A stretch of DNA of 64,000 nucleotides, taken from the IMG/VR virus record IMGVR_UViG_3300024999_000053, positions 1 to 64,000 of that record; one strand, given 5' to 3'. A program made the translations under genes and the position numbers. The notes beneath the pieces were generated by a model. The model saw only the letters and a program-made list of their open reading frames with translations. It did no database searches and was not told the DNA's origin. Below are positions 3,852-56,971 of this stretch, in pieces (position 1 is the stretch's first letter; every line of letters starts with the position of its first letter). Origin of the DNA: a virus.

Positions 3852-5483
3852 ATGTTAATAACAAAAGAAGTAACTATAGAAATAACAAACAGAAACAAAT
3901 CTTATTATAATAAATTAGGCCATAATTGTTTATCTGGAGATATTATACATATAAAAACAGAAGATTTACATAAAGGTTCTAATTTGATAGTAGAGAGTTT
4001 GTGTGATTATTGTTTAAAAGAAGGAATAGAAACAATACTTCCAAAACCATATCGTAGGTATAATAAAGAACGTGAAAAATTTCCATCAGATACTTGTTAC
4101 AAACATAGGTACGAAAAAGAGAATGATAAATTAAAGTATAATAATGATAATGGATTATTAACTATCAATGATAGAAGATATTTTACATTTAAAGAAAATA
4201 GGCTGAAAGAATTAAAAAATCATATAGATGAATTTGGCACAATAACAAATATTGAAAACATTAATCGTCTCTTATATGGTGAAATATTACGCAATAAAGA
4301 AACTCCTACATCATTAGTGGAAGAGATGGGATACGATGTTATAAAAATATGTGGAAAATTACCTCCTCATTATTTTGATGATTGGGAAAAATTAGAATTT
4401 TATCTTAGAAAATTAATTAAACAAATTGACAGATTCCCAACACAAGCAGAGATACTTAAAGAATTAAATATAGGACAACAGCATATTGGTCGTCACGGTG
4501 GAATGCAAGGTATAAAAAGAAAATTGAATTATATTGATGAAAGTGATTTAATTGATGATTCTGGATACTATAATTCTTCTTCCTATGAGTATATTTTTAG
4601 TCAGTGGATTTTAAATAATTCTCCTGTCAAAGTAGAAAGAAATGTGTTGATATCGGACAATACAGAAGAAGATGGTAATTATAATTGTGACTTTGTTTTG
4701 ACATTACCTAACGCTACAAAACTATGGATAGAAATTTGGGGAGGGTATAGAAGTAATACCAAAGATCAGTTTCATAATTATAATGATACACATGACACTA
4801 AAATGAAATTATATAATAAATATCAACATAATTTAATATCAATATATCCTGAATTCTTTGATAATAGGAAATACGAAGATATACAAACTGCATTATATGA
4901 ATTATTTAGTGATAAGATAGAATGTATACATAAATGTATTGATGTTGAGAAAATAATTCCATACGCTATAATTGATGAACAGGAATTAATAAATAAATTA
5001 TTGTCATATTCATCTATAAAAGGATATTTACCAAGAAGTAAAATTATGAGGCATAATAACGATAGATTAATGAAAGAAATAACAAAAAGATATGGAACAT
5101 ATGGTAAATTTTCCGATAAGGTAGGAATACCTATGGAATTTAAAACTAATAAATTTTGGAATGAAGAAAAAATATTAGAATACTTTGATTTACTTCATGA
5201 CAAATATAGTAAATTATTAAATAGACCTGAAATTCAAAAATTAAAAGACGATTGTAATTTATGTAAAGATTTAAATGGAATTGTTACTATTCTTCATAGA
5301 TATGGAGGAGGATTTATAAATTTACAACTTACATATTTATCAAAAAATATTACAAAAATAAACTCAAATGATATTAATTATCTTGATAAAGTCATAAACA
5401 AAAAATCACAGGGTATCAAGCCAGAACATCAACTCCTAGCAAAACAAATCCTAGAAAAATACAACAACCAACAATCAGCATAA
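3852..5483 (+). CDS. Free-standing putative homing endonuclease, PD-(D/E)xK-like
   Basis: CDYC zinc knuckle; SSYEY...CDFVL...IEIWGG nuclease-like core; paralog of 51520-53223. Confidence 0.6.
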   Translation: MLITKEVTIEITNRNKSYYNKLGHNCLSGDIIHIKTEDLHKGSNLIVESLCDYCLKEGIETILPKPYRRYNKEREKFPSDTCYKHRYEKENDKLKYNNDNGLLTINDRRYFTFKENRLKELKNHIDEFGTITNIENINRLLYGEILRNKETPTSLVEEMGYDVIKICGKLPPHYFDDWEKLEFYLRKLIKQIDRFPTQAEILKELNIGQQHIGRHGGMQGIKRKLNYIDESDLIDDSGYYNSSSYEYIFSQWILNNSPVKVERNVLISDNTEEDGNYNCDFVLTLPNATKLWIEIWGGYRSNTKDQFHNYNDTHDTKMKLYNKYQHNLISIYPEFFDNRKYEDIQTALYELFSDKIECIHKCIDVEKIIPYAIIDEQELINKLLSYSSIKGYLPRSKIMRHNNDRLMKEITKRYGTYGKFSDKVGIPMEFKTNKFWNEEKILEYFDLLHDKYSKLLNRPEIQKLKDDCNLCKDLNGIVTILHRYGGGFINLQLTYLSKNITKINSNDINYLDKVINKKSQGIKPEHQLLAKQILEKYNNQQSA

Positions 5484-5630
5484 AAACAATTATAAACAAT
5501 TGCAAAGTCTATAATTGTTTTTATTAACATCAAAATAAGGAGAGAAGCAGAAGAAATAAAAACTTCTCTTTTCTCCTTATTTTTTTACTATTTTCATCCA
5601 TCAACCAGTCTCTCCCACCCTCATCTCCAA

Positions 5631-8897: not shown

Positions 8898-9914
8898 ATG
8901 GCAGAAGTAGCAGATAAACTACCACCAGTTACAGACGAACAATGGCAAAAGTTAAATAAATTCAATCGTAAAATTACAGAGGAATTTTTAGAAGAGTCAA
9001 CTTCACTTAGTCCAAAAACTATTCGCCAATACAAATCTGCGTTGCAAATATTTTTCTTTTGGGTTTATGAAAATTGTGATGATAAATCTCTATTAGAAAT
9101 CAAGAGTAGAGATTTTCTTAAATATCAAAATTTTCTTGTAAGAAGGGGAATGTCATCTTCGGGAGTTAGATTAAAACGGGCAGCAATTAGTTCTTTAAAT
9201 GGATATATAATTACATATTACGAGGAAGAATATTCTACATTCAAAAACTTTATCACTAAAAAAATTTCTGCACCTCCAATGAATGATTTACATATAAAAC
9301 AACCAATGAATGCAGAAGAATGGGAATTATTATTAAAGAATCTTAAAGAACGTGAACAATGGCAAAAATTAGCATATTTGCAGTTTACTTATTCGACAGG
9401 CTGTAGAAGAGCGGAGTCGAGACAGTTACTTAAAGAAGTAGTTGATTATCCTCCTATCATTAAGGAAAAGATTATTAAAAATGAAGATGGAACAGAAGAG
9501 ACAAAAACAGTTACATTTTATACTACATCTGATATTCGCTGTAAAGGAAAAGGGGTTATTGGAAAAATAAGGAAACTACAATTTTCTAAAGAAGCTCTAG
9601 ATGCAATTAATAAATGGTTAACTTTTAGAGGAGAAGATGATTGTCCATATGTCTTCGCAATAAAAAGGGACGGTAGATATCAGCAAGCAGGAGAAGGACT
9701 ATTTAATGACTGGTGCAAGGATGATTTTAGTAAAGTTATTAATAGAAGAGTCCATCCTCACCAACTTCGTGAGCAAAGGGCGACGAACCTTGTAATTCAT
9801 GAAGGGAAAAATATAAAATCTGTACAGGCGTTATTAGGCCATGTCAGTTCGGCAACTAGTGAGATTTATGTGATTAGGGATAATTCAGATGATGTTGAAG
9901 ATGCATTTAGTTAA
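8898..9914 (+). CDS. Tyrosine recombinase (positionally like SPbeta YomM in the tail region)
   Basis: Catalytic set TGCR, KGK, HPHQLR, LLGH, SEIY. Confidence 0.9.
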   Translation: MAEVADKLPPVTDEQWQKLNKFNRKITEEFLEESTSLSPKTIRQYKSALQIFFFWVYENCDDKSLLEIKSRDFLKYQNFLVRRGMSSSGVRLKRAAISSLNGYIITYYEEEYSTFKNFITKKISAPPMNDLHIKQPMNAEEWELLLKNLKEREQWQKLAYLQFTYSTGCRRAESRQLLKEVVDYPPIIKEKIIKNEDGTEETKTVTFYTTSDIRCKGKGVIGKIRKLQFSKEALDAINKWLTFRGEDDCPYVFAIKRDGRYQQAGEGLFNDWCKDDFSKVINRRVHPHQLREQRATNLVIHEGKNIKSVQALLGHVSSATSEIYVIRDNSDDVEDAFS

Positions 9915-11552: not shown

Positions 11553-11828
11553 ATGGAAAAAGTTACATTTAGATATTCTGATTCTAACTTTTGTGCTTAT
11601 TTAGTTTATTTAGGTTTTGAAATCATTGGATTTGACATTGTAGAAAAACGTGGAAATAAAGCAAAAGTATTTCTTCATTTTGAAGGAGTTAGAGAAGAAT
11701 TAATTGATTTATTTAACAAATTCCATACCAATGATATTCAAGTTAACCCTAATACATTTGGAAAGTCAAAAAACACTGTATTAAAAATAGTTAAAGAACA
11801 TTTACACAAATATATAAACAATAAATAA
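11553..11828 (+). CDS. Small DUF5659-like protein
   Basis: SDSNFCAYLVYLGFEI...KVFLHFE. Confidence 0.55.
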   Translation: MEKVTFRYSDSNFCAYLVYLGFEIIGFDIVEKRGNKAKVFLHFEGVREELIDLFNKFHTNDIQVNPNTFGKSKNTVLKIVKEHLHKYINNK

Positions 11829-11858
11829 TTTATTATAAAGTAAGGGAGGCATTTAATT

Positions 11859-13337
11859 ATGCTAGTAATCAAGAAAAAGAAACTAAGAGTTAGTGATGTT
11901 GTAACAGGAGAACAAATAAAAATATGGAATTTAGGAGACATCATAACAATAAAAGCAGGTACAGGCGTAGGCAAGAGTTGGTTAATCAAAAATATACTTT
12001 ATGCTATTGCAAAAGGTGAAAATAAGAAAATATTAATGCTTATACATAGGAGTAATTGTACAGAACAATTTATTGATGAAATATCAAGGGACAATAAATC
12101 AGATGTAATAGATATAAAGACTTATCAAAAACTAGAATACAAAGAGTTAAAATCATATTTTAATGATTTAAGTGAATATAAATATATTGTCTGTGATGAA
12201 TTTCATTATTTCATGTCTGATGCATCTTTCTCAAAAACAACAGATATGTCATTTGATTTGATATTAAGTCAATCATCAGCAATAAAAATATTCATGAGTG
12301 CCACTGGAGATCAAATGAAGAGATTTATCAATGACAATAAAGGAATAGAAACAATAGACTATGAATTACCTATTGATTTTGATTTTATTGAGGATTTATC
12401 TTTCTTTCATAATGATGAAACTTTTGATATGTTTATGGATGAAATAATTACAAGAAATGAGAAAGCAATTTTCTTTATTCAGTCTGCAAAGAAAGCATAT
12501 GAATTGTGTAAAAAATATAAAGATTATTGTTTATTTAATTGTAGTAAGCATAATAGTGATTATTATAAATATGTAGACAAAACAAAGATTAAGGAAATGC
12601 TAAAGAATGAAAAATTTGAGGAATTAATCCTAATTACAACGACATGTATGGACGCAGGGGTTAATTTAGTTGACACTGAAATAAAGCATGTAATATGCGA
12701 GGTTGAAGATACTGGAGTCCTAGTGCAATGTATTGGAAGAAAAAGAATACAAAGTGAAGATGATAAATTTCATCTATACATAAAGATAATCAACAATAAT
12801 TCATTAGGTGGCAAAGAAACTCAGTTAAAGAAGAAAATACACATGGCTAATTTTCTGAAAGAGCATACTGTCAAGGAGTTTATAGAAAAATTTCCAAGAC
12901 AATATGATTATTCAAATATGGTTTATGATAATATTGTCTTAGAAGATAATATGTGTACAAAGAAAGTAAATGAATTAATGTTTTTTAAATGTGAGGAAGA
13001 TTTAGCAGAAATATTAACTATAGTAGGATATGGAAAATATGGATATTGTAAATACCTAAAGGAGATTTTTGGTATGGATGAATATAGAGTTATTGAAGAA
13101 GATGATAAAACAGATGAATTAATAAAGTATTTGGATAAAATTATTGGGAAAAGATTGTTAAAAGAAGATCAAAAGGAATTGATTGATATTGTAAATTTAA
13201 GAGATTCTAGAAATAGACAACAAAAATCAATAGGACAATTAAACGAGTATTTTAAAGCAAATAAATTAAAATATTTAATTATATCTAAGAAAAGTGGTTC
13301 AGTTAGATATTGGGAAATTATTAATGATATTGTATAA
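11859..13337 (+). CDS. SF2 (DExH) helicase with short basic C-terminal domain
   Basis: Walker A AGTGVGKS, motif II CDEFH, motif III SAT, motif V TTTCMDAGVN, motif VI QCIGRKR. Confidence 0.85.
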   Translation: MLVIKKKKLRVSDVVTGEQIKIWNLGDIITIKAGTGVGKSWLIKNILYAIAKGENKKILMLIHRSNCTEQFIDEISRDNKSDVIDIKTYQKLEYKELKSYFNDLSEYKYIVCDEFHYFMSDASFSKTTDMSFDLILSQSSAIKIFMSATGDQMKRFINDNKGIETIDYELPIDFDFIEDLSFFHNDETFDMFMDEIITRNEKAIFFIQSAKKAYELCKKYKDYCLFNCSKHNSDYYKYVDKTKIKEMLKNEKFEELILITTTCMDAGVNLVDTEIKHVICEVEDTGVLVQCIGRKRIQSEDDKFHLYIKIINNNSLGGKETQLKKKIHMANFLKEHTVKEFIEKFPRQYDYSNMVYDNIVLEDNMCTKKVNELMFFKCEEDLAEILTIVGYGKYGYCKYLKEIFGMDEYRVIEEDDKTDELIKYLDKIIGKRLLKEDQKELIDIVNLRDSRNRQQKSIGQLNEYFKANKLKYLIISKKSGSVRYWEIINDIV

Positions 13338-13343
13338 ATAAAG

Positions 13344-13580
13344 TTTGGGACAATTCATGGAATAGTCTTTAACAGCCTTATCCAAAAATTGTCCCAAATA
13401 ATTATAAATCATTATTCATGAAGTAATTTTGGGACACCAAAATTTCTGAAATGATCCTCGATGGAAATCGCCCTAGTAAAAATAATATAATAAATATCAT
13501 AAAACATATATTAATCAAATTGGGGGAAACGTAATTTTGTGCCAAAATTCCGATAGCATTTCCCCCAAACCCCCCTTTGC
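13344..13580. other. Helicase-linked non-coding element: inverted repeat plus conserved hairpins (origin/ssi-like)
   Basis: TTTGGGACAATT/AATTGTCCCAAA 13344-13398; TCATGAAG-hairpin-CTGAAATGA 13416-13454; GTAATTTTGTGCCAAAATTCC 13531-13551. Confidence 0.55.
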
Positions 13581-13733
13581 CTATGATATTTTATAATTCT
13601 TTCATATTTTCTAACTAAACCAATAAATAAAATTAATGTCGAAACAAATCACATTAAATTCATTGTATCTTCCTCCTTTTTCATATATACTACTTTACAA
13701 ATAAAGAATAAAAAGTAAGAGGAGGAAAACAAT

Positions 13734-15443
13734 ATGAAAAGAAATCAATTCCCTAAAAAACTATTAACCACAATTTCCACAATCACATTATCAGTTGCCC
13801 TATTATTCACATCAATCACTCCAATATTAGCTTCTGAGGTGAATTTGTCACCTCAACATCAAGTATCAAATTTAAATTCACAACAATCCCTTCTATCAAC
13901 AAAAACAGTAAAACCAACAAAAGTAACATTAGATTCCAAAACATTGCAATTAAATGTAGGAGATAATGAAACTTTAACTCCTACTATATCACCTTCAACA
14001 GCCACAAATCAGTCAGTTACTTGGAAATCAAGTAATACTAAAATTGCTTCTGTTGATTTAGATGGTGTAATCACAGGAATTAAAAAAGGAAGAGTAATTA
14101 TCACTGTAACAACGGTTGACAGCAAGAAAACTGCTAAATGTGTGGTTACTGTAAAAACTGCTCCAATCATAAATGTCACAGGTATTAATTTAAATGAAGA
14201 AAATATATCCATGAATGTTGGAGATAGTGATATTTTGACTGCTACAATTACTCCAGACAATGCTACTAATCAAAATGTAACTTGGAGTTCTAGCGATGAA
14301 TCAATTGTAACAGCAAATTCAGAAGGTGAAATAGAAGGTATAAGTTCAGGAGATGCCACTATTACAGCAACAACAAAAGATGGGAATAAGAAAGCAACTT
14401 GTGAAATTACTGTAGTTGCTGTAGAAGATGATACTCCAATTGTAAATGTTGAAAGCGTTAGCTTGGATAGAAAAATCATATCTATGAAAGTTGGAGAGAA
14501 TGAAATATTAACTGCTACCATAAATCCCAATGATGCCACTAATAAAAATCTAATTTGGAATTCTAGTAATGAATCAGTATTGACAGTTGATCAAAGTGGC
14601 AGAATAGTAGCAGTAAGTTCTGGTTCATCGGATATCACTGTCACATCTATAGATGGTAATAAGACAGATATTTGTAAAGTTACTGTAGAGAGTAATGAAA
14701 TACCATTAACTATTAATTCAATTGCAGATATTACTCAATCTATTAACCAAAATGATTCATATTCTCCTCCAACAACTGTAGAAGCTTTAATGAGTGATAA
14801 TACTAAAAAACAAGTAGGAATTACTTGGAATACTACAACCATAAGTTCTTTGTTATCTAATTCAGTAATTAATGATAATGATTTAACAAATGATTTTAAC
14901 AAGGAATCATTAGAATCTTTAAAATCATTAACTAAATCAAATTCTATATTTAATGTTGAAGAAAAAGAAAAAATGGAAAACAAAATTAAAGAAGAGGAAT
15001 CAGATTTTAAAAATTCATTGGATTTAGATGTAAATGAAACTAGAACACAATTATCATCAACTCTTACAATTGATACAAGTAAATCTGGAATATTTACTTA
15101 TTATGGGAATGTTAATGGATATGATAAACAAGTAAAATTAACATTGACTATAAAATCAATTAGTTCTGTGAAGTTTTTCCCATTATTATCTGATGTACCA
15201 ATGCCAGTAGGGTATGATTATAAGAAAGTTTCAGTAACTAGTGGTACTGTATTTTACTATTATGATATGAATGCTTTTAGTTTTTTGACTTTTTCAGAAT
15301 CAATAAAACCTTATGGATGGACATATTACAAAAGTGATTATGATAATCAAGGACTTTCTATTTTCTATTTTAGAAAAGGTAGTTCTTTGATAGGAATGGC
15401 ATGGATCGGATATGATAGAGTAATTTATGGGAAGATTCGTTAG
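13734..15443 (+). CDS. Secreted/surface protein with three Big_2 and one Big_4-like Ig domains (moron)
   Basis: Signal peptide; three ATNQ/K.VTW.SS repeats; TIDTSKSGIFTYYGNVNGY; own RBS and downstream hairpin. Confidence 0.8.
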   Translation: MKRNQFPKKLLTTISTITLSVALLFTSITPILASEVNLSPQHQVSNLNSQQSLLSTKTVKPTKVTLDSKTLQLNVGDNETLTPTISPSTATNQSVTWKSSNTKIASVDLDGVITGIKKGRVIITVTTVDSKKTAKCVVTVKTAPIINVTGINLNEENISMNVGDSDILTATITPDNATNQNVTWSSSDESIVTANSEGEIEGISSGDATITATTKDGNKKATCEITVVAVEDDTPIVNVESVSLDRKIISMKVGENEILTATINPNDATNKNLIWNSSNESVLTVDQSGRIVAVSSGSSDITVTSIDGNKTDICKVTVESNEIPLTINSIADITQSINQNDSYSPPTTVEALMSDNTKKQVGITWNTTTISSLLSNSVINDNDLTNDFNKESLESLKSLTKSNSIFNVEEKEKMENKIKEEESDFKNSLDLDVNETRTQLSSTLTIDTSKSGIFTYYGNVNGYDKQVKLTLTIKSISSVKFFPLLSDVPMPVGYDYKKVSVTSGTVFYYYDMNAFSFLTFSESIKPYGWTYYKSDYDNQGLSIFYFRKGSSLIGMAWIGYDRVIYGKIR

Positions 15444-30062: not shown

Positions 30063-30178
30063 GCAAATGTGACGGGTTTAAAAACGGCTGAAATGGCTCA
30101 ATACTTAACCGCTACTATGGCACAATTCAATGTCGTAGCAGAAGATAGTGTTTCAATAGTAAATAAAATAAATGAGGT
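30063..30178 (+). CDS. Tape measure protein, exon 2 (116 nt, absent from ORF track)
   Basis: ANVTGLKTAEMAQYLTATMAQFNVVAEDSVSIVNKINE(V), the otherwise missing piece of the conserved core. Confidence 0.88.
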
Positions 30179-30495
30179 TAGTAAATTAGCCTCCTAGTAT
30201 GGTGACATATTAGTAAAAATTCTTAAACTGCTGGAAATCCCTTAGAGACTTATAAACTACAACGTAGATGGAAACGTCAAGCGTGAATGTTTAAAAATTA
30301 TAAGTATTGGGTAATCAGCATCGAAATCCCTTAAATGGGAGACGTTCAACGACTATAATAGAAGTGGTTTATTGATTTATAAACCATAAGGTATAGTCTG
30401 AACTTTATGGAAACATAAAGAAATAGAAAGAAATTTCTATTCGCCACTACTATATAGTGGTCAATACCTTTTAATAAAGGGAAAGTAACAGAATG
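30179..30495 (+). ncRNA. Group I intron 2 (317 nt, no ORF)
   Basis: IGS AUUAGCCUC pairs GAGGU and 3' exon UGAU; P TGCTGGAAA, Q AATCAGCA, R TTCAACGACTA, S AAGGTATAGTCT; ends GAAAGTAACAGAATG; removal restores NEV|DNNFAV. Confidence 0.9.
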
Positions 30496-33400
30496 TGATA
30501 ATAACTTCGCTGTGACTTCGCAAGGTTTGGCACAAAGTTTGGCGAAAGCTGGGGAATCCGCGCAGATTTATGGTGCAACACTTGATGATGTTATTGGATA
30601 TACCACGGCAATTCAGACCGCCACAAAAGAGTCGGGAAATGTCATCGGAAATTCGCTTAAAACTACGATTTCTCGAACATTTTCGACAGATTCCGAGAAA
30701 GTATTAGCTGGAGTAGGAATTGCGATAAAAGATATATCAGGAAATGTAAGAGATGTCAATCAAATCTGGGGAGAATTAGCTGTTAAATTCAAAACGCTCT
30801 CTAGTGAGCAAAAACAGCAAATCGGACTTACAATTGGGAGTCGTTATCATTTAACACGGTTTTTAGCCCTTATGGATAATTGGCAAATAGTTACAGATGC
30901 CACCACAACATCACAACAGTCTTTATTCTCTGCTTTAGAGGAAAATAGAAAGCATTTAGGTAGTTTGGAAGCTCAGATTAATAAAGTAAAATCAGCAGGT
31001 CAAGAGCTTTCATATGTACTAGGAGAAAGCGGATTAAAATATGTAATGTATGGAGTTTTAGCAGGAACAACTTTGCTTGTTAATGGGTTAACAGAATTAT
31101 CCAATATGGGAGCAGGAGGCACAATCGCAATAACCGCTCTTGTACTAACTATGGGTGGATTATTAGCTAAAACATTAAGTCTTATTCCTGCACTTAATGC
31201 TGCAACTGTAGCTTTAAAGGCTTTTACGATAGCAACACTTACAAATCCGTGGATAATATTTGGAACTGTTGTTTTGGCTACAATAGTTAGCATTGTTTCA
31301 TATTTTGGACACGCTAAACAAGTAAGAGAAGAGCAAGAAAAATTAAACAAAACACTAGGTGACTCAACAAAAAGTTTTAATGTTCTTGCTGAATCAATAA
31401 ACAAAATAGGTGCTCCTACTCTTCAAAATATTAATGATATTGAAGCTCAAATTAAACGTTATGACGAATTAACTGAAGTAATACTTAAATCAAAAGAAGC
31501 TGAGTCTAAAAAAAGAGTTAAGACAATTGATCCTCGCACAATGCAAGTATCATTACAAAAGAAAAATATCCCAGAAGAAGTAATTGATCTTGCGGCAAAT
31601 CTTCGTATTGATGTTGGGGCATTTAAAACTTATGATGCATTGCTTTCAGAAATTACAAAAAAACAGAAAGAACTTGCTGATTCTACTGAAAAAGCCAAGA
31701 AAAATTCTACTGAGTATCAAGCACAGCAAATTAAACTATCTCAAACAAGTTTGGATGTTGCCAATAATACAAATGATTTAGTTAATGAGTATAAAGAATT
31801 GTCTATTATTACAGAAAAAAATGAGCAACAGACCAAACGTTACTCAGAAGTTAAGAATATGCTTTTAGCTATGTTTCCTGCTGAATCCAAAAATGGTCAA
31901 ATTATTATTGCTCTTTTAGAGGAAGAATCTAAGAAAAGAGTAGAACTTGCAGAAACAACAATGGCAAAATCTAGAGAACAATTGATAGCCAATGTTAAAT
32001 CTCAACAAATTACTTATGAAACTGCCGTAAAAAACATGGCTTTTTATCAGGCAGAAATAGATATGTTACAAGAACTTTGGTCTGCTCGTTCTAATAATAC
32101 TGGAAGCACAGGAAATTGGAGAATAGCTGAAGATTTAGGAATGGCTCAATCTAATTTTGTAGAAACAAAAAAAGAAGTAAATTCGCTATCAGATTCTATT
32201 AGTAAAATGAATGATGTTCTTAATTGGAAACCTGCTTCTGTTGCTGGTATTGGAGATAAAGACAAAAAAGATTCATCTTCAAAAAAAGATAAACCTGCTG
32301 ATCCATCCTATACAGACCCAATTGATGCTTTAATCAGAGAATCAAATGCTCAAGCAGAATTATCAAAAGCTAAAAGTGAAACTATTACAAAAGAACTTGA
32401 GCAAGCAAAAGCATCAAAAGACTATGGTTTAATTTTGGTTAAAAACAATGAACTTATAGAAAATCAAAAGAAAGCTATTTTGGACTTAAATGAAGCTCAT
32501 AATAAGATTAATGCTTTAAAAGATTCATCAATTTTATATTCTAAATTTGGAGATACTTCTCGTTGGTTTGACTCAAATAATGAAGCTTCAACTCAATATT
32601 ATTCGGAGTTAAATTCTGCATCTGCCGAAGTTCAAAAAACAATGGAAGCAGAATATACTCATATGGAAAAACTTCGTAAAGCTTGGGTAATAAACACAAA
32701 CGAAATAAAATTAGCAACAGAGGCTCAAAAAGAATTCGCAAAACAATCTCACGAAGATTTGTTCAAAGGAATAGAAGAACAATCCCAAGCTTTATCCTCT
32801 GCTGATGTATCCAAACTAGAATCCTCCTTTAAAAACCTAGACATCGAATCATGGATAGAATCAAACATCACAGCAACATCAGAATGGGCAGACGTAACAG
32901 CCTCTCTCCAAGAAGAACTAGCAAAATTAGGTAATCCAACAACACTAGAAGGTCAGAAAAAATATAATGAACTTTTAGAAGCTTCTGCTACTAAGGCGGC
33001 AACTGCATTAAAAGCACAGCAAGAATTAGAGAAAGCTAAAGAAAAAGCTGGTCAAGATGCACTGTTTGAACAAGCCGATGAAGATATCAAAGATATTATG
33101 TCTCAAATTGATGATGTAGACCAAATGCAAAAATTAGGAGCAGGTGGATTCTCTTCTCAAGTTCCTAAGATCAAAATTAACATTATTCCTGATATAGATT
33201 TGGATAGTGTAGATGAAGCTATACAAAAAGTTGTAGATGAAACAAAAAGTGAATTTACGTTCAAAGCACCTACTACTTTTATTAATGTTATTAATAATGA
33301 GTTTACTAATGCATTGTCTAAAGCTCAAGATAATATCATTGATCTTAAACAAAATATTAAAAATTTAGGTGAAATAAAACCTGAAAATCAAGGCCAGGTT

Positions 33401-36400
33401 GATGGGTTTTTAGAGCAATGGCAAGAAGAACTTGATAAGTTATCTAATAAGGCGAAAGACACTAGGGAAAGTCTGAAGAAGTCATTAGACGCTAAAAGTA
33501 TTACAGAGGAAGAATTTAATTCCCAAACTCAGGCAGTCAATAATGCAGAACTAACCGTATTGGCAATTCCTAGAATTGAAATGTCAGCAGAGTATCAAAC
33601 AGAATTGGAAACTCTAAAAAAGGACTATGATAATATTCCTGTAACTGTTGATACAGTTGAAGCAAATGAAATAATTTTAGCATTAATAGCAAACGCTGAA
33701 AAGTTGATTACGGCAAACATTGATTCAGCAGTTGCTAGTCAAGTCATAGCTGATTTAACAAAATCTGAAATTAAAACCATTTATATTCAAACTGTAACTT
33801 CTTCGTCAAGTGAGGATTCAGGTGATAGTGGAACTCCTGCAAGAGCAACAGGAGATAGTAATTTTGTCGGGGGAAAGGTAATTGTTGGAGAAGAGGGAAA
33901 AGAATTAATCTCTGAACCAGATGGCACAACCTATTTATCAGGCGATAAATCAGAATTAAGAGATTTACCTAAAGGTACAGTAATCCTACCTAATAGAAAA
34001 ACTGAGAATCTTCTCAAATCTTTAGGTGTTCCTGCTTATTCCAGTGGTACAGGTGATATTAAACTTGAAACTCTTATTGACTCTCAGACAGAAGATTTAG
34101 AAAAAGTCAATAAATTAATCAAGAGTACTGGGAATGCAATAGCAAAAGTAGAAAACAGTATTAAAAAATATATTAATCCTGATGGAACTGTTAATGATAA
34201 ATATGCATCTGATACTAAAATTGTGGATAAGGTTAATATTGCCAATGCAACAATTAGTAATCAAGGTGTAAATCTTAAAACTTATCAAGACCAATCAGAC
34301 AAACTAGTTAGTTCTATTGCTGAATTAAAAACAAAAGTCGATTTATCAAGTGTCGATTCATTAGTTACTAGATTAAAGTATATCAATGAAGGTATAGATG
34401 AAAATAGCAAAGTTATTAAAACATCTACAACTGATCTTGCTAAATACGTTGATAAAGACGGCAATATCAAGAAGAAGTATTTAGATACTGAAAAATCTAC
34501 TGATAAGCAAAAAGCAAGGAATGCAGAAGTTGCTCAAATAGTAGTAGATGACAGGAAAAAGATTGAGAATGCGGCAACTAGTAAAAACACGCTAACCAAT
34601 CAAAAAGAAACTACTTCTACTGTATTAGGTAATCTTAGATTTGATCAAGCTAACGATACTAAACTTGCGCTCTATAGTGAAGCATTGGAAAAAATTGATG
34701 CTGGAATCGTAAAAGTAACTGATTCAATGGAAAAGTATAAAAACGAAGATGGTAGTTACAAAGATAATGCTACTACAAGGGCTGGAAAAGCTAAACTTCA
34801 AGAGTATTATGATCAGGAAAAATCAATTCAACTTTCAATGAAGCAAATTATTACAGATAAATTCAATGCTGAATATGAAGGTTATGACAAACTTCAGAAA
34901 AAATCTGAAACACAAGTATCTGACTTGCAAAAGATTCTAGAATATCAAAAACTTATAGGTGCAAGTGTTGAAGACCAACTTGAATCAGAGCAAAGTATTT
35001 TAGAAACTAAGGAAAGCGAACAAAAATCTCTATTAGCCGAACAAGCATCCTTAGAAGCAAAGAAAACTACTATTGTTGAAAAAGCAAAAGCTGATTTATC
35101 AACAGCAAAACCTGATGGTTACACGCAAGCAGATTTAGATAGTCTGTTGGAACATAATAGTGAGTATAATTTAACTATTGATAAACTTACTACAGTCCAT
35201 TCTCAAGTATTAGATTATAAAAATTCAATAATGCAAGTTTTGCAAGAAATTGGTCAAATTAGAGCAGATGCAATAATAAAACCTTTTACTGATTCTATTG
35301 CTCAATCACAACACAGTATATCTATTCTTGGAAATCTTGATACTCTTGATGAAAAGAAAAAAGCTTATGAATATACTCAAGAAATTGGTGAAACTCTTCA
35401 AGATGAAAGTGAAAAGATTGCAAAGAGAATTTCTGAGATTCAGATTAAACTTAATAATTTAGATCCTAGCAAAGCACCTGAAGAAATTGCTAAATTAAAA
35501 GCAGAACTTGATAAATTAACATCTACTCAATATCAACTTGAGATTGAAATTATTACTAATCTTGATTCTGTAATTTCACAACTCAATAATCTCGATGTAA
35601 GTGGAATTCAAGAAGCGTTTGATGCTGGAGAAGATTGGCAAAGTATTATTCCTATAACTTTAGAAGGTCAGAAGAAATATAATGAACTGTTGATACAGCA
35701 AGCAGAAAATCAACAAGCCGCAACTAAAGCACAAGAGGAATATAATAAAACCTTAGAAAAGACAAAATTAGACCAACTTTTATCAAATGCTGACGGTCAA
35801 TTAAAGGATATTAATGATGCTATTAATTTAGTTGATCATTTTGTTTCTTTGGGAAAAGATGGTACTAGTAAAGAAGTTCCTACAATTGATTATGTTAATG
35901 ATACTCCTCATATTACTCCTAAAACTCCTGAACAAGCTGGGGCAGAAGTTGAAAATCCTGCAAATAAGACAGATTATGTCCCTCCAAAAACTTTTGTTGA
36001 TTTTATAAATAAAGAATTCTCTGATGCACTTAAAACAGGAAATGCACAAATTGCTGGATTTAATGCTGAAATTGATGCTTTAGGGCCAATTACTGAAGAG
36101 AATGTTGGAAAATTTATTGCACTAACTACAAAAATTAGTGATGTTGGAAAAGGATTAAATCAGACTTATTTGGATGCCAGAAAAGCTGTTGAAAATGATA
36201 CGAGCCTTAGTGAAGATGAGCGAAATACAAAATTACAACAAATTGATGCATCTAATATTTCAATATTGTCTAAACCTCAAATACAAATTACATCTGATGC
36301 TAAGCTTGCTCTTAAAACAGCAGGGATAAATATTGCAACGGGTATTATTGAACCATATACAGATGCAATATCTAAATTAGATCCAACTGCAGATATAGCA

Positions 36401-39400: not shown

Positions 39401-39670
39401 ATAAATAAGTCGATATTGGATTCTCTAGAAGGATTTGATTTTAAAAGTGTAATGGGCTCTATCACTAATATTAGAGGATTGTCTGATATCTTCAAAGCAC
39501 CAATAGATATGATGAAAAGTATTGGTAGTCTTGTGAAACAGACTAGTCAGACAGTAGAAAATCATTTTCATATCAACAAACTTGAATTGCCAAATGTTAA
39601 TAATCAAAACGGAGTAGACTCGTTAATTAACGGTCTCAACAGTTATGCAATTCAGTATTCAAAGAAATAA
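30496..39670 (+). CDS. Tape measure protein, exon 3
   Basis: DNNFAVTSQGLAQSLAKAG...ESGNVIGNSLKT core; hydrophobic segments; long coiled coil. Confidence 0.9.
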
Positions 39671-54020: not shown

Positions 54021-54188
54021 ATGATAATCAAATCCAAACGAGTGAAAAGATTTTTATATAATTTAGGGTTTGAATTTACTTTAACAAATATTAATGGTAA
54101 AGAAGGATATTTATTTCAAGAAAGTCCAGAATTAAAAGAATCAATAGCATTCTATTATAAAATAAGAAAGACTTTTGAAAATAAATAA
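54021..54188 (+). CDS. Small DUF5659-like protein (55 aa, not in ORF track)
   Basis: MIIKSKRVKRFLYNLGFEF...YLFQESPELKESIAFY. Confidence 0.6.
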   Translation: MIIKSKRVKRFLYNLGFEFTLTNINGKEGYLFQESPELKESIAFYYKIRKTFENK

Positions 54189-54222
54189 CCTCTTTAATTA
54201 AAGAGGAGGTCGAAAGACTAAT

Positions 54223-54897
54223 ATGAATTATGTAAGCGATTTAATAAAATTAAAAGACATTGAACGATGGGTAGAGGGCTATATTATTGCTATAAATTCA
54301 CCAACTGGTTCAGGAAAAACTCATTTTATTAAAACCGTATTAAAGGATTATTGTAAGATTAATAAGAAAACTATACTCCTATTGACAAATAGAGATATTT
54401 TAAAAGATCAATTTATTCATGAATTAATAGAAGATGATAAAGATGGAATAATTACAGTTAAGAATTATCAAAGTATAGAAACAAAAATAATGTATGATAT
54501 ACCTATCGATGATTATGATTATATAGTATGTGACGAATATCATTATTTCTTCAATGACACCTTTAATTTTTGTACAGATATGTCTTTAAATTATATTTTA
54601 GGGCAAACTTCCAGTATCAAAATATTGCTTAGTGCTACATCTACTGTTCCTATTAAATATTTAGAAGAAGTTAAAAACATTGATATAATTAAATATTCAA
54701 TAGAACCAGATTATAGTTACATAGAAAAATTATACTTTTATAAAAACGATGACGTAATTCTTAAACTGTTGAATGAATTACCGGAAAACGAAAAAGTAAT
54801 ATATTTTACAAAAGCAAAAACGTCTTATGATTTTAGTAAACAAATTGAAGATAGTGCTTTTAAAATAAAAAAAATTTTACAACAAATAATATTTTAA
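54223..54897 (+). pseudogene. Truncated SF2 helicase (N-terminal half), paralog of 11859
   Basis: SPTGSGKT, CDEYHYF, SAT present; motifs V and VI missing. Confidence 0.7.
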
Positions 54898-54970
54898 AAA
54901 ACTCTGCAATATGTTATAATTAAGGAAATACCACAAGAAAACAACTAAAATTAATGGGGGTATATAAAAT

Positions 54971-56377
54971 ATGGCAGACAAAGAAAGTGATGTGGAAAGT
55001 AGGAAAATATTTTTAGAAGAATTACCAAGAAGAGGTAAGACTTCTCAAATTGATTGGAAAAAATCAATAGGATCTAAAATAAAGTTTATTTTTAATGATG
55101 TTCAAGGTGAATTGCCCGTTTTAAATTATATACGAGAAAAGGGCGTTGGTTTTATAATTACTGAGTATAATGATTGTAAAGATTTTAAAATATGTACTAG
55201 TAGTTTGTCAAAATGCCTTATTGGTGAAATAATTAGAACGCAAACAAAGCAATATAGTTTTGATATTGGAGACATTGTTGAAAATGTTAATCTTGGTAAA
55301 CTAGAAATTTTAGAACAAATACGACTATTAAGATATAATGGGTATACACAGAAAGGTTACAAATATAAATGTTTAATATGTGGAAATATTGATGAAATAA
55401 GTGAATCAGATTTAAATTTAAATAAAGGTTGTAATGTTTGCTGTAAACCTTCGAAAAAAATACTTAAAGGATATAATGATTTATGGACTACTCATCCAGA
55501 TATAGCTAAATTATTAAAATTTCATGAAGTAGGGTATGAATTATCGTATGGGTCATCTAATACAGAAATATTTATATGTCCAAATTGTGGACTTGAAAAA
55601 GATATGCGTGTATCTAGTTTACTTACGCAAGGGTTATCATGCTCTAGGTGTGGAGATGGTATCCCATATCCTGAGAAGTTCCTATTTTGTACTATACAGC
55701 AATTAGATTTAGAATTTATAACACAGTTAAATAAGGTAGTATTTGATTGGTGTGAAGATTATAAATATGATTTATATACAAGTAAAAATAAATGCATTAT
55801 TGAGGTTCACGGAAGACAACATTATGAAGAACATAAAGGAAGCAGTTGGGGTTCACTAGAAGAAATTCAAGAAAATGATTTAAATAAAGAATGGTTGGCA
55901 AAAAGTAATAATATTAAAAATTACATTGTATTAGATTGTCGAAAGTCGGAGTTAGAATGGGTTAAAAACAGTATAATGAATAGTAGACTTCCTAAGTTAT
56001 TAAACTTCAGAGAATCAGACATTGATTGGATAAAATGTCATGAGTATGCTTGTAATAGTTTAGTTAAAGAATCATGTAAACTATGGAATGATGGTATTAA
56101 AAGTACAACAGAAATAGGGAAAATATTGAGATTAGATAAGTCAACAATTCGCAAATACTTAAAACAAGGCACAGAATTAGGTTGGTGTGATTATGATCCT
56201 AAATTCAAAAGAGTGGTAATATGTTTAAATACAAATGTTGTATACAATTCCATTGCAGAGATATCAAGAATATTGAATATAAATGTTAGTAATATATGTG
56301 ATTGTTGTAGTGGTAGGATAAAGTCGGCGGGAAAAGACCCTATAACTAGTGAAAAATTAGTATGGAAATATTTATAA
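54971..56377 (+). CDS. Zinc-ribbon / Vsr-like putative homing endonuclease
   Basis: Several CxxC; NDLWTTHPDIAK; PE...YKYDLY...IIEVHGRQHY; NUMOD1-like tail. Confidence 0.7.
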   Translation: MADKESDVESRKIFLEELPRRGKTSQIDWKKSIGSKIKFIFNDVQGELPVLNYIREKGVGFIITEYNDCKDFKICTSSLSKCLIGEIIRTQTKQYSFDIGDIVENVNLGKLEILEQIRLLRYNGYTQKGYKYKCLICGNIDEISESDLNLNKGCNVCCKPSKKILKGYNDLWTTHPDIAKLLKFHEVGYELSYGSSNTEIFICPNCGLEKDMRVSSLLTQGLSCSRCGDGIPYPEKFLFCTIQQLDLEFITQLNKVVFDWCEDYKYDLYTSKNKCIIEVHGRQHYEEHKGSSWGSLEEIQENDLNKEWLAKSNNIKNYIVLDCRKSELEWVKNSIMNSRLPKLLNFRESDIDWIKCHEYACNSLVKESCKLWNDGIKSTTEIGKILRLDKSTIRKYLKQGTELGWCDYDPKFKRVVICLNTNVVYNSIAEISRILNINVSNICDCCSGRIKSAGKDPITSEKLVWKYL

Positions 56378-56640
56378 TGACATTAGAAGACAAACTTGAT
56401 AAATTAGTTGGAATAAAAATGTTTAAAGATGGTCAAGAAAAGCTTATTAGTTTTATGAGAGATGAATTATTCAATGGAATAACTGATAGACATGGAACTG
56501 TTAAAATTAATACTATTAATGGATATTTTAAAGACAATAATATTCCTTATGAAATTGAAAGTAAAAAAGAAACAATTAGAAAAGATGCCAATTATAATAA
56601 AAGATATTGGATTTTGTGTAAAAAGATATATGAATTATAA
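56377..56640 (+). CDS. Stand-alone C-terminal domain of the helicase (start coupled via TAATG)
   Basis: LDKLVGIKMFKDGQEKLI...INGYFK.N...ESKK...RYWIL aligns with the last ~75 aa of 11859-13337. Confidence 0.65.
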   Translation: MTLEDKLDKLVGIKMFKDGQEKLISFMRDELFNGITDRHGTVKINTINGYFKDNNIPYEIESKKETIRKDANYNKRYWILCKKIYEL

Positions 56641-56643
56641 AAT

Positions 56644-56870
56644 TTTGCATCCAGATTGGTTGATTTACTATAAGCGTATATTTACCAATCTGGATGCAAA
56701 TAAGAAAATTAATTATAATACAATCTCATGAAGGAATTTTGGCACAAAATTACTGAAATGACGCTCCGCAAGACTAATGTTAAATTAATTATCTCATGAC
56801 ATGTCAAAGGAACGTGCGGTCATTCACAAGTTCATTCCCTTACTAAATATTCGCTATCGCTCATATTTAG
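56644..56870. other. Second helicase-linked non-coding element
   Basis: 17-bp perfect IR TTTGCATCCAGATTGGT 56644-56700; TCATGAAG-hairpin-CTGAAATGA 56726-56761; TTCGCTATCGCTCA. Confidence 0.55.
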
Positions 56871-56971
56871 GATTTGATTATTTAATTAAATGATTTGTTT
56901 TCCTGAGAGAAGAAACATAAAATCTTCTCTCTTTTATTTGTTTTCATTTAAGTTTAGATTGGAGGTGAAAA

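What the first reader, a model, noticed from the sequence alone, without database searches (positions are those of the whole stretch)
11553..13580. Repeated module: small gene + SF2 helicase + cruciform + conserved DNA hairpin element
Seen: the same order occurs at 11553-13580 and 54021-56870. Within 7 bp of each helicase C-terminal stop lies an inverted repeat of 55 or 57 bp whose arms differ between copies, then TCATGAAG-[hairpin]-CTGAAATGA (13416-13454; 56726-56761). GTAATTTTGTGCCAAAATTCC (13531-13551) is the exact reverse complement of 56733-56753, a stem with a GCA triloop. Established: GNA-triloop hairpins are stable in ssDNA and act as enzyme recognition signals; herpes UL9 is an SF2 helicase with a C-terminal origin-binding domain; RSF1010 uses opposed ssi hairpins. 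Inference: a self-contained origin module or helicase-driven mobile element in which the variable C-terminal domain recognises its own inverted repeat and the conserved hairpins are priming or nicking signals. I do not recognise it as a described system.
Basis: partly seen in the sequence, partly recalled or inferred. Interest (0 to 1): 0.82.

Follow-up and report, generated by a model that had tools for sequence, protein, structure and literature searches.

The report
Phage helicase with its own palindromic origin
A family of phage helicases always carries a matching palindromic DNA site right after its gene, most likely a private start site for DNA copying; one of the two copies here is broken by a selfish nuclease gene.

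Summary
A homing-endonuclease gene replaces its middle, leaving a 224-aa N-terminal piece and a 92-aa C-terminal piece.

The window is the first 64 kb of a 118-kb phage record. A three-tier palindrome of 53-68 bp follows the stop codon of this DExH (SF2) helicase across Bacillota phages and prophages. A covariance model finds it in 24 of 24 viral loci and 35 of 47 genome loci. It finds nothing else in 270 kb of phage and prophage DNA.

The arms vary but stay complementary, with no strand bias. The middle arms co-vary with the last ~70 residues of the helicase. Between two otherwise near-identical elements, exactly this tail plus the palindrome is swapped. The tail looks winged-helix-like and is predicted to form a dimer.

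The TCATGAAG...CTGAAATGA hairpin opens a ~200-nt hairpin-rich unit. In 40 metagenome loci it follows one of four gene types, each with its own repeats, including SF3 primase-helicases with iterons.

Best reading (~0.5): an initiator-helicase plus cognate origin cassette, working like SaPI Rep-ori or herpes UL9-OriS. A role with neighbouring YonO-like RNA polymerases is not excluded. Earlier scan notes describe similar modules elsewhere, mostly with primase-helicases.

The parts
11553..11828 (+). Small ORF (91 aa) directly upstream of helicase 1, weakly DUF5659-like
   Evidence: Pfam DUF5659 at E 0.0019, below the curated cut-off. It clusters with the upstream ORFs of L005, L008 and L009. The hhalign match to the larger small-ORF family is weak (probability 2.2%).
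11859..13337 (+). Intact SF2 DExH-box helicase (492 aa) with a C-terminal domain of about 70-100 aa
   Evidence: Pfam ResIII, DEAD and Helicase_C; phrog_16. Invariant G36/G38/K39/S40, D113-E114-F115-H116, S147-A148-T149 and Q290/G293/R294/R296 in 16 relatives. AF2 mean pLDDT 84.7. Foldseek finds generic SF2 helicases.
13344..13398 (.). Palindrome 1: outer arms TTTGGGACAATT/AATTGTCCCAAA, A-rich spacers, imperfect middle arms and an AT-rich centre
   Evidence: Covariance model R1 scores 45.5 bits, E 2e-6, with a similar score on both strands.
13416..13454 (+). hp1: TCATGAAG-stem-loop-CTGAAATGA, the first hairpin of the conserved non-coding unit
   Evidence: The same element occurs in 40 metagenome loci.
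13455..13476 (+). hp2: small hairpin CGAT-GGAA-ATCG (allele A of three)
   Evidence: Alignment of 38 distinct units.
13520..13568 (.). Nested hairpin TTGGGGGAAA...TTTCCCCCAA. It encloses the inverted hp1-like hairpin (13531-13551) and a CGATAGC word
   Evidence: Similar GGGGG...CCCCC elements follow the palindrome in L013, L024 and L160.
54021..54188 (+). Small ORF (55 aa), member of the commonest small-ORF family upstream of these helicases
   Evidence: 38 of 64 upstream small ORFs form one phmmer cluster that includes this one.
54223..54897 (+). N-terminal fragment of helicase 2 (224 aa; RecA1 domain with Walker A and DEYH)
   Evidence: 39% identity to residues 11-222 of helicase 1. 87% identical to residues 1-213 of the intact homologue in L241.
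54971..56377 (+). Homing-endonuclease-like gene (468 aa) replacing about 183 codons (the RecA2 domain) of helicase 2
   Evidence: phrog_4538, phrog_9084 homing endonuclease and phrog_559 HNH endonuclease. Weak Pfam I-HmuI NUMOD-like match. Paralogues elsewhere in the record (cluster c4). L241 has no such gene.
56362..56640 (+). C-terminal fragment of helicase 2 (92 aa): a complete C-terminal domain with its own ATG, overlapping the endonuclease stop
   Evidence: it aligns over the whole C-terminal domain, including the invariant W. 88% identical to L241.
56644..56700 (.). Palindrome 2 (17-bp outer arms TTTGCATCCAGATTGGT)
   Evidence: Weak R1 match, E 0.17. The same outer arms follow the intact L241 helicase.
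56726..56761 (+). hp1, copy 2 (stem AATTTTG, loop GCA)
56762..56890 (+). Rest of the conserved non-coding unit: hp2, the TCATGACATGTCAAAGGAACG box, a variable hairpin, and a hairpin (56843-56871) with the conserved loop TTCGCTATCGCTC
   Evidence: Alignment of 38 distinct units. The last stem changes on both sides: CTAAACAT/ATGTTTAG, CTAAATAT/ATATTTAG, CTAAACTT/AAGTTTAG.
56905..56944 (+). Hairpin GAGAGAAG/CTTCTCTC followed by a T-run, terminator-like by eye. It closes module 2
   Evidence: Read. The consensus scan did not list it; its loop is longer than the scan allows.

Best explanation
Each module is a replication-origin cassette. The DExH (SF2) helicase acts as an initiator. Its C-terminal domain is winged-helix-like and probably dimeric. 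It reads the middle arms of the palindrome that lies directly after its own stop codon.

Proposed mechanism: two-fold binding, perhaps together with extrusion of the outer arms as a hairpin or cruciform, exposes the AT-rich centre (consensus close to AGCTCTATATAGAGC). The helicase core then opens it so that the phage replication machinery can enter.

The C-terminal domain and the palindrome are exchanged between phages as one unit. In the phage population of this window, whole initiator-plus-repeat cassettes of four kinds alternate in one slot. That slot is closed on its 3' side by a constant, hairpin-rich unit of about 200 nt that starts with TCATGAAG...CTGAAATGA. The role of this unit is unknown (candidates: priming or loading signals, or a small RNA).

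Module 1 is intact. Module 2 is a decayed copy whose helicase was gutted by a homing-endonuclease gene, though its C-terminal domain, palindrome and hairpin unit survive.

Shown here: anatomy, conservation, covariation, the cassette swap and the genomic context. Inferred: DNA binding, dimer formation, melting and replication.
For: 1. The palindrome is tied to the gene.
- It starts -35 to +76 nt from the helicase stop in relatives down to 28-31% protein identity, including the cultured Psychrobacillus phage Perkons.
- Model R1 finds it in 24 of 24 viral loci and 35 of 47 genome loci at E <= 0.1. Forty of these sequences were seeds and match by construction; 23 non-seed loci also match. Only 3 hits lie elsewhere.
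- In 270,289 bases (the whole 118-kb record, three 40-kb prophage regions, a 16-kb element and two small phage-collection loci, L148 and L149) it hits only the site after each helicase.

2. The pairing is conserved while the sequence changes.
- 77.9% of cells pair, against 56.2 +/- 1.2% in shuffles.
- 236 cells changed on both sides, against 96.7 +/- 7.9.
- Slid controls give 33-48%.

3. No strand bias, as expected for a DNA-level site.
- G.T 48 versus A.C 35, p = 0.19.
- Plus-minus-minus fold energy averages -0.24 kcal/mol, p = 0.73.

4. A natural swap. L025 and L026 are about 100% identical across the helicase gene. Identity drops to 32-60% only over the last ~60 codons plus the palindrome, then returns to 92-100% right after it.

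5. Co-variation over 703 pairs.
- Middle-arm similarity tracks identity of residues 431-492 (Spearman 0.42; partial 0.37 with the N-terminal and middle segments of the helicase (residues 1-320 and 321-420) held constant; 0 of 300 permutations reach it).
- It does not track the N-terminal part (partial 0.06).
- The signal peaks at residues 421-490.

6. The C-terminal domain.
- It folds as helices plus a beta-hairpin (pLDDT 81.6).
- Its best, weak matches are winged-helix DNA-binding domains.
- Two copies are predicted to pair symmetrically: score 0.61, best of 3 controls 0.00, runs agree in at least 90% of contacts, partner pLDDT at least 77. That mark was reached by 20 of 30 proteins solved as pairs and 1 of 23 solved as single chains. 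The model supports binding but does not show it.

7. The same slot holds known replication gene types. In 40 loci with hp1, the gene ending upstream is:
- this helicase family in 18
- a second SF2 helicase in 9
- an SF3 D5_N/DUF5906/Pox_D5 primase-helicase in 4; AGTAACAAGT iterons around an AT-rich centre were examined in one of them
- a ~400-aa phrog_36702 protein in 6
- out of view in 3
All 30 non-SF3 cases in view have their own palindrome -29 to +20 nt from the stop.

8. In the 16-kb integrative element L201, the helicase is the only recognisable DNA-replication enzyme.
Against: - Nothing here shows binding, melting or replication.
- The C-terminal codons and the palindrome are adjacent. 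Plain linkage therefore explains part of their co-inheritance, and only one clean two-sided swap was found.
- The outer arms, the best-paired part, track no part of the helicase (rho <= 0.19) nor the small upstream protein (rho -0.17). Yet they fall into a few recurring types, which this reading does not explain.
- The module sits at the early/late boundary. It lies directly before terminase and portal genes in 8 of 71 loci and within 3-4 kb of a YonO-like RNA polymerase gene in 19 of 71. This fits a transcription role equally well.
- Prophage G002 also encodes a separate replication-initiator-like protein (phrog_1835/428).
- L022 has a second, near-identical palindrome 1.2 kb upstream of the helicase, in the divergent promoter region, which looks operator-like.
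- SF2 helicases are not usual replicative helicases.
- The fold matches of the C-terminal domain are weak (best E 0.065; best Z 4.3).
- G.T exceeds A.C slightly, so an RNA hairpin is not excluded.
Confidence: 0.5

Rival explanations
1. Late-transcription switch. The helicase is a site-specific activator or promoter-opening factor. It could serve a sigma-less YonO-type single-subunit RNA polymerase, or the host polymerase. The palindrome is its entry site, and the hairpin-rich unit is the leader of the late transcript.
For: - A YonO-like gene lies within 3-4 kb of the helicase, upstream or downstream, in 19 of 71 loci. The family assignment rests on phrog_8308, which also rings in the B. subtilis control, and Pfam RdRP PF05183.
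- In 8 of 71 loci the next genes are terminase and portal.
- The YonO promoter and any helper factors are unknown, and its late transcript starts with an unannotated non-coding RNA (passages of PMC5467207).
- The site is single-copy, as expected for a single late promoter.
- L022 has a second copy in a promoter region.
Against: - The 118-kb record has two modules but no phrog_8308 match, although the record is only 72% complete.
- 52 of 71 loci show no YonO-like gene nearby.
- In this phage population the same slot holds primase-helicases with iterons, which are replication genes.
- Downstream genes vary and are often on the other strand.
Confidence: 0.2
2. RNA-level element. The palindrome is a 3' hairpin of the helicase mRNA, acting as a stabiliser, an RNase III-type processing site or an unusual terminator. 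The hairpin unit is a 3' UTR or small RNA.
For: - Its position right after a stop codon is typical of such elements.
- It has about 20-25 pairs with internal loops.
- The hairpin unit always has the orientation of the upstream gene.
- The unit contains GNRA-type loops and stems that change on both sides.
- The folds are far more stable than shuffles (z -5.2 and -3.5).
Against: - No T-run follows the palindrome, and the terminator scan finds nothing there.
- No strand bias in wobble pairs or in fold energy, for the palindrome or for the unit (mean 0.51 kcal/mol, p = 0.59).
- The centre is often a perfect palindrome through the would-be loop.
- The arms fall into discrete recurring types.
- The specific co-variation with the protein's last 70 residues is not expected for an mRNA hairpin.
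- No Rfam family matches.
Confidence: 0.12
3. Selfish mobile cassette, or a packaging or recombination site. The helicase with its palindrome moves as a unit by homing or site-specific recombination. Alternatively, the palindrome and GC-rich hairpins are a cos/pac or recombinase site.
For: - There are two modules in one genome in different neighbourhoods.
- Cassettes alternate in one slot.
- Endonuclease genes repeatedly sit in or beside these helicase genes (window copy 2, L239, L010, L207).
- A tyrosine recombinase gene lies upstream in several loci.
- In 8 of 71 loci the site lies just before the terminase genes.
Against: - The palindrome follows the helicase whatever lies downstream, so it is not tied to the terminase.
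- Two packaging sites in one genome would be harmful.
- No target duplications or empty sites were found.
- Cassette exchange is also usual for phage initiator/origin modules, so mobility does not contradict the origin reading.
Confidence: 0.08

Closest known systems
SaPI / PICI Rep-ori modules (self-loading initiator helicases of Staphylococcus aureus pathogenicity islands)
   Same: - The origin lies immediately downstream of the helicase gene.
- Repeats on both sides of an AT-rich centre point in opposite directions.
[quoted passage not shown]
- Protein and origin are matched pairs.
(Passages of PMC9371898.)
Related phages of this window carry such an SF3 module with iterons in the same slot (L058/L209).
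   Different: - The core here is a DExH SF2 helicase, not an SF3/AAA+ hexameric helicase.
- The site is one three-tier palindrome rather than 6-12 short iterons.
- No adjacent primase gene.
- Nothing has been tested at the bench.
Herpes simplex virus UL9 (origin-binding protein) with OriS
   Same: - An SF2 helicase with a separate C-terminal sequence-specific DNA-binding domain, working as a dimer.
- A palindromic origin with inverted boxes around an AT-rich spacer.
- A hairpin form of the origin takes part in activation.
(Passages of PMC12543377.)
The UL9-OriS structure 9hgi_A is among the Foldseek matches of the helicase model (rank 34, E 8.7e-8), but so are many other SF2 helicases.
   Different: - The match covers only the shared SF2 core.
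- The C-terminal domain here is ~70-100 aa and winged-helix-like, not the ~315-residue UL9 domain with its RVKNL motif.
- Here the site abuts the gene's own stop codon.
- The hosts are bacteria.
RSF1010 oriV ssiA/ssiB (opposed single-strand initiation hairpins read by the plasmid primase); details recalled, no call
   Same: In module 1 and in 4 of the 38 distinct units compared (W1-type L224, L211, L223, L237), the same hairpin appears once on each strand about 85-110 nt apart.
   Different: - Most units (33 of 38) have a different hairpin at the second position.
- No primase recognition is known.
- No strand preference was detected.
Lambdoid O-protein/ori and other phage initiator-origin cassettes (recalled; search listing of PMC6022878 and PMC7466680 only)
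   Same: The specificity domain of the initiator and its binding sites are inherited and exchanged together as a mosaic module.
   Different: In lambda the origin lies inside the O gene, and O is not a helicase.

Membership tests
SF2 DExH/DEAD-box helicases | Walker A (motif I), DExH (motif II), SAT (motif III) and motif VI arginines, in two RecA-like domains | tested here: met
   Pfam ResIII, DEAD and Helicase_C. Invariant GxGKS, DEFH, SAT and QxxGRxxR in 16 relatives. Foldseek matches to many SF2 helicases at E ~1e-8. Copy 2 keeps only the first RecA domain.
SaPI/PICI Rep-ori replicon | SF3/AAA+ self-loading hexameric helicase core | tested here: not met
   The core is SF2. The SF3 type occurs in the same slot in other phages, not in this window's modules.
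SaPI/PICI Rep-ori replicon | Origin immediately 3' of the helicase gene: repeats in opposite orientation around an AT-rich centre | tested here: met
SaPI/PICI Rep-ori replicon | C-terminal winged-helix domain that reads the repeats | tested here: inconclusive
   The topology is helices plus a beta-hairpin. Best matches are winged-helix domains but weak (E 0.065; Z 4.3). Co-variation with the middle arms supports reading. No binding data.
SaPI/PICI Rep-ori replicon | Autonomous replication driven by the pair | not testable with these tools
   Needs a replicon assay.
Herpesvirus UL9/OriS | SF2 helicase with a C-terminal origin-binding domain homologous to UL9 (RVKNL motif) | tested here: inconclusive
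   Only the SF2 core matches 9hgi_A. No UL9 chain appears among the C-terminal domain matches. No sequence match to any solved chain at E <= 1.
Herpesvirus UL9/OriS | Palindromic origin with an AT-rich spacer, bound by dimers | tested here: inconclusive
   The palindrome with an AT-rich centre is present. A C-terminal homodimer is predicted (score 0.61, best control 0.00) but not shown.
Intrinsic (rho-independent) terminator | Short GC-rich stem followed by a T-run | tested here: not met
   No terminator-like site at either palindrome or at hp1. A-rich rather than T-rich sequence follows.
Any curated RNA family (Rfam 15) | Match at the gathering score | tested here: not met
   Only a group I intron at 30169-30420 passes. 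The two regions give only sub-threshold microRNA/snoRNA-type hairpin matches.
RSF1010-type opposed ssi signals | The same hairpin on both strands, flanking the origin, read by a dedicated primase | tested here: inconclusive
   Opposed identical hairpins occur in module 1 and in a minority of relatives. Primase recognition is not testable.

The most novel reading that the evidence does not exclude
The helicase is the missing start factor of YonO-type single-subunit, two-barrel RNA polymerases. Its winged-helix tail docks on the palindrome, the SF2 motor melts the AT-rich centre, and the sigma-less polymerase starts there. The product would be the late transcript and/or the primer that fires the origin. 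The palindrome would then be the unidentified YonO promoter or entry site, and the hairpin-rich unit its leader RNA.
Probability: 0.13. Interest if true: 0.85.

Novelty: new variant of a known kind. Interest (0 to 1): 0.62.

Why it matters
If the origin reading holds, Bacillota phages, prophages and small capsid-encoding integrative elements share a widespread replicon type. At least 688 protein clusters match at E <= 1e-5. This replicon would be built on an SF2 helicase rather than on DnaB-, SF3- or lambda-O-type initiators. That makes it a bacterial-virus counterpart of herpesvirus UL9/OriS.

Practical consequences:
- The palindrome gives a simple sequence rule for predicting origins and incompatibility or specificity groups in uncultured phages.
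- The natural swaps of tail plus palindrome give ready-made specificity pairs for testing how a winged-helix tail reads DNA.
- The alternation of four initiator cassettes before one constant hairpin-rich unit shows how replication modules are exchanged in a natural phage population.
- The repeated neighbourhood with YonO-like RNA polymerases offers a testable lead to the still unknown promoter and helper factors of that enzyme.

Tried and rejected
Searches that gave nothing:
- Rfam over the whole window and both regions: no family for these elements.
- tRNA/tmRNA scan: none.
- Sigma-70 promoter and terminator scans: no enrichment, and no terminator at the palindromes.
- Nucleotide search of phage records with module 1: no match.
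- Protein search of phage records with the helicase: only 2 records. A YonO-like query did not reach SPbeta, so I could not compare the mapped YonO start site.
- Related loci for the helicase-2 N-fragment in viral contigs: none confirmed. The intact relative came from the metagenome pattern scan instead.
- Sequence search of solved structures with the helicase: nothing at E <= 1.
- Protein atlas for the 280-aa neighbour c1: only unnamed clusters.

Weak or negative tests:
Only 3 (L058, L104, L107) carry the hairpin. The rest are unrelated, mostly coding, matches.
- Strand-bias tests meant to separate RNA from DNA were all negative.
- Outer-arm similarity against any helicase segment or the small upstream protein (rho -0.17, 996 of 1000 permutations at least as high): no link.
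- Fold searches of the C-terminal domain are weak. I call it winged-helix-like only.
- hhalign of the module-1 small protein against the commonest small-ORF family: probability 2.2%. Whether the two small genes are one family is undecided.
- RNAalifold on the palindrome alignment predicted only the outer stem. The three-tier structure used afterwards is my own reading of the sequences.
- R1 missed Perkons although its palindrome is clear by eye.

Other limits:
- Sequencing runs: no RNA holder listed.
- Literature: searches found no description of this helicase-palindrome pair. The Perkons paper (passages only) discusses another helicase and mentions no palindrome. Supplements were not seen.
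As a result, the 618-aa ORF at 63349-65205 and four of the six ~400-aa proteins were judged by eye only.
Full report
What the window is. It is the first 64 kb of a 117,963-bp virus record that is estimated to be 72% complete. G+C is 24-35% in 2-kb windows. The annotated genes include a tyrosine recombinase (8898-9914), Bro-N and antirepressor genes, RusA, a tape-measure gene and tail genes. So this is a large, probably temperate, phage of a low-GC bacterium. Runs labelled groundwater metagenome hold the stretch.

The observation. The two palindromes are 55 and 57 bp long and begin 6 and 3 nt after a stop codon. TCATGAAG-hairpin-CTGAAATGA occurs twice in the window, twice in the whole record, and never in shuffles. 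The 21-mer of copy 2 recurs exactly, inverted, at 13531-13551.

One correction is needed. Helicase 2 is split into a 224-aa N-terminal piece and a 92-aa C-terminal piece. A 468-aa homing-endonuclease-like gene sits where about 183 codons (the second RecA domain) should be. An intact relative without that gene exists (L241).

The palindrome is a family trait.
- Helicase relatives were collected from viral contigs (24 loci, 46-94% identity) and from genomes of many Bacillota (47 loci). Those genomes include Desulfosporosinus, Clostridium, Bacillus relatives, Paenibacillus and Lachnospiraceae.
- Two phage records were added, including the cultured Psychrobacillus phage Perkons at 31% identity.
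- By eye and by folding, almost all have a 53-68-bp palindrome at the helicase stop, sometimes reaching into the last codons.
- The plan is constant: outer arms of 8-12 bp, an A/T spacer of 3-5 nt, middle arms of 6-8 bp, a short GC clamp and an AT-rich centre close to AGCTCTATATAGAGC.
- A covariance model built from 40 copies finds the site in 24 of 24 viral and 35 of 47 genome loci. Seeds match by construction; 23 non-seed loci also match. Only three hits lie elsewhere.
- The 12 misses are: two loci with too little sequence (L168, L195), one partial helicase (L191), two with a palindrome visible by eye (L177, L185), two with a different palindrome (L179, L180), and five without a clear one (L188, L189, L190, L193, L196).
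- In 270 kb of whole-element sequence the model hits only the site after each helicase.

DNA site or RNA hairpin?
- Pairing is strongly conserved while sequences change: 77.9% paired against 56.2% in shuffles, and 236 against 97 double changes.
- There is no strand asymmetry. G.T is 48 against A.C 35, p = 0.19. Fold energies of the two strands do not differ, p = 0.73.
- The centre is often a perfect palindrome.
- No T-run follows, and the terminator scan finds nothing.
- This favours a two-fold symmetric DNA site, possibly one that extrudes, over an mRNA hairpin. It does not exclude the latter.

Link to the protein.
- Pairwise identities show mosaicism: the last ~80 residues often have a different history from the rest.
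- L025 and L026 are about 100% identical at the DNA level across the helicase gene. Identity falls to 32-60% only over the last ~60 codons plus the palindrome, then returns to 92-100% immediately after it. This is a clean two-sided swap of exactly the unit "tail + palindrome".
- Over 703 pairs, middle-arm similarity follows tail identity (Spearman 0.42; partial 0.37; 0 of 300 permutations reach it). The signal maps to residues 421-490.
- The centre follows the helicase core.
- The outer arms follow nothing in the helicase and do not follow the small upstream protein either.
- The tail is predicted as three helices plus a beta-hairpin. It matches winged-helix domains only weakly.
- Two copies of the tail are predicted to form a symmetric dimer: score 0.61, best of 3 controls 0.00, runs agree in at least 90% of contacts, partner pLDDT at least 77. 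That mark was reached by 20 of 30 solved pairs and 1 of 23 single chains. This supports binding but does not show it.
- The whole helicase model (pLDDT 84.7) matches generic SF2 helicases, among them the herpes origin-binding protein.

The hairpin element. hp1 is the first part of a unit of about 200 nt. The unit consists of:
- hp1
- a second mini-hairpin in three alleles with GNRA-type loops
- an AT spacer
- a TCATGACA(A/T)GTCAAAGGAACG box
- a variable hairpin
- a hairpin with the conserved loop TTCGCTATCGCTC, whose stem changes on both sides

Only close relatives have this unit. It was found in 3 of 119 loose-pattern hits in viral contigs and in 40 metagenome loci with the strict pattern. 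The unit always has the orientation of the upstream gene.

The upstream gene varies:
- this helicase family in 18 loci
- another SF2 helicase of 654 aa in 9
- an SF3 primase-helicase (D5_N, DUF5906, Pox_D5) in 4; the intergenic repeats were examined in one of these (L058/L209), where about 290 nt carry AGTAACAAGT iterons around an AT-rich centre
- a ~400-aa protein in 6, of which two were scanned and both match phrog_36702
- out of view in 3

All 30 non-SF3 cases in view have their own palindrome at the stop. So the unit is the constant 3' border of a slot in which initiator-plus-repeat cassettes alternate.

In module 1, the inverted 21-mer sits at the position of the variable hairpin. The same arrangement occurs in L224, L211, L223 and L237 only. 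No strand bias was found for the unit. Its function remains open.

Context in more distant relatives.
- In small prophage-like elements the order is scaffold, major capsid, HTH, a 280-aa unknown, small ORF, helicase, palindrome, about 300 nt of structured non-coding DNA, then terminase and portal.
- The 16-kb element L201 adds an integrase and has no other recognisable replication enzyme.
- In 19 of 71 loci a YonO-like single-subunit RNA polymerase gene lies beside the helicase. The window's record has no such gene in the part held.
- The YonO promoter is unknown (PMC5467207, passages). This keeps a transcription reading alive.
- A small ORF of about 55-70 aa precedes the helicase in most loci. 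Thirty-eight of 64 form one family, which includes the module-2 ORF.

Comparison with known systems. The layout works like SaPI Rep-ori: the origin lies directly 3' of the helicase gene, and a C-terminal winged-helix domain reads inverted repeats around an AT-rich centre (PMC9371898, passages). [quoted passage not shown] It is not a member of the SaPI Rep family: the helicase core is SF2, not SF3. Kinship of its tail with the UL9 DNA-binding domain could not be shown: that domain does not appear among the tail's fold matches. Earlier notes of this scan describe similar helicase-plus-3'-repeat modules on other genomes, mostly with SF3 primase-helicases. I found no paper describing this SF2 family with its palindrome (searches; Perkons paper passages).

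Verdict. The origin-cassette reading is the best supported (about 0.5). A late-transcription role (0.2) and an RNA role (0.12) remain possible. I rate it a new variant of a known kind.

Noticed in passing
window 54223-56640; L239; L207; L010: Endonuclease genes repeatedly sit in or next to these helicase genes, and the middle of the helicase is lost. In the window, about 183 codons are replaced. In L239, roughly residues 64-278 are replaced.
   Followed up: partly
window 30169-30420: Group I intron (Rfam RF00028, 72.8 bits) just before the 3052-aa ORF 30512-39670. ORF 28061-29662 matches tape-measure families, so the tape-measure gene seems to be interrupted.
   Followed up: no
L197:15932-19249, L199:16093-18783(-), L013, L015, L017, L024 and others: YonO-like single-subunit RNA polymerase genes (phrog_8308; Pfam RdRP PF05183 on the one scanned against Pfam that matched, L197) lie next to the helicase in 19 of 71 loci, on either side.
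   Followed up: partly
L022:2748-2805 and 5502-5559: Two near-identical copies of the palindrome bracket the HTH / small ORF / helicase operon. The upstream copy lies in a divergent intergenic region, which looks operator-like.
   Followed up: partly
L058:1949-2228 (same record as L011): At least nine AGTAACA(A/G/T)GT repeats in both orientations surround an AT-rich palindrome directly after an SF3 primase-helicase gene. This is a classic iteron origin. The same phage record also carries the SF2 helicase with its palindrome, so it has two replication-type modules, like the window's phage.
   Followed up: partly
window 3852-5483 and 51520-53223: Paralogous genes (543 and 567 aa) with 70-75% identical DNA stretches lie upstream of the two modules. 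The duplicated context may therefore be larger than the modules themselves.
   Followed up: no
window 63349 to record position 65205: A 618-aa ORF with a FALDFDEG motif and a CFGC zinc-ribbon-like motif. PHROGs gives only phrog_25531, of unknown function.
   Followed up: partly
window 13666-13736: The sequence CTTCCTCCTTTTT pairs with the ribosome-binding region AAGAGGAGGAA of the Big_2 gene (13734-15443). This could be a hairpin that hides the start site.
   Followed up: no
L201 (16,182-bp record): A small integrative element carries integrase, HTH regulators, scaffold, major capsid, helicase with palindrome, terminase and portal, in an unusual gene order. It may be a capsid-encoding satellite-like element.
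   Followed up: partly
L013, L024, L160, L170, L172 downstream of the palindrome; window 13520-13578: GC-rich nested hairpins of the form GGGGG...CCCCC, often with a GCGATAGCG or CGCTATCGC word in either orientation, recur after the palindrome in distant relatives.
   Followed up: no
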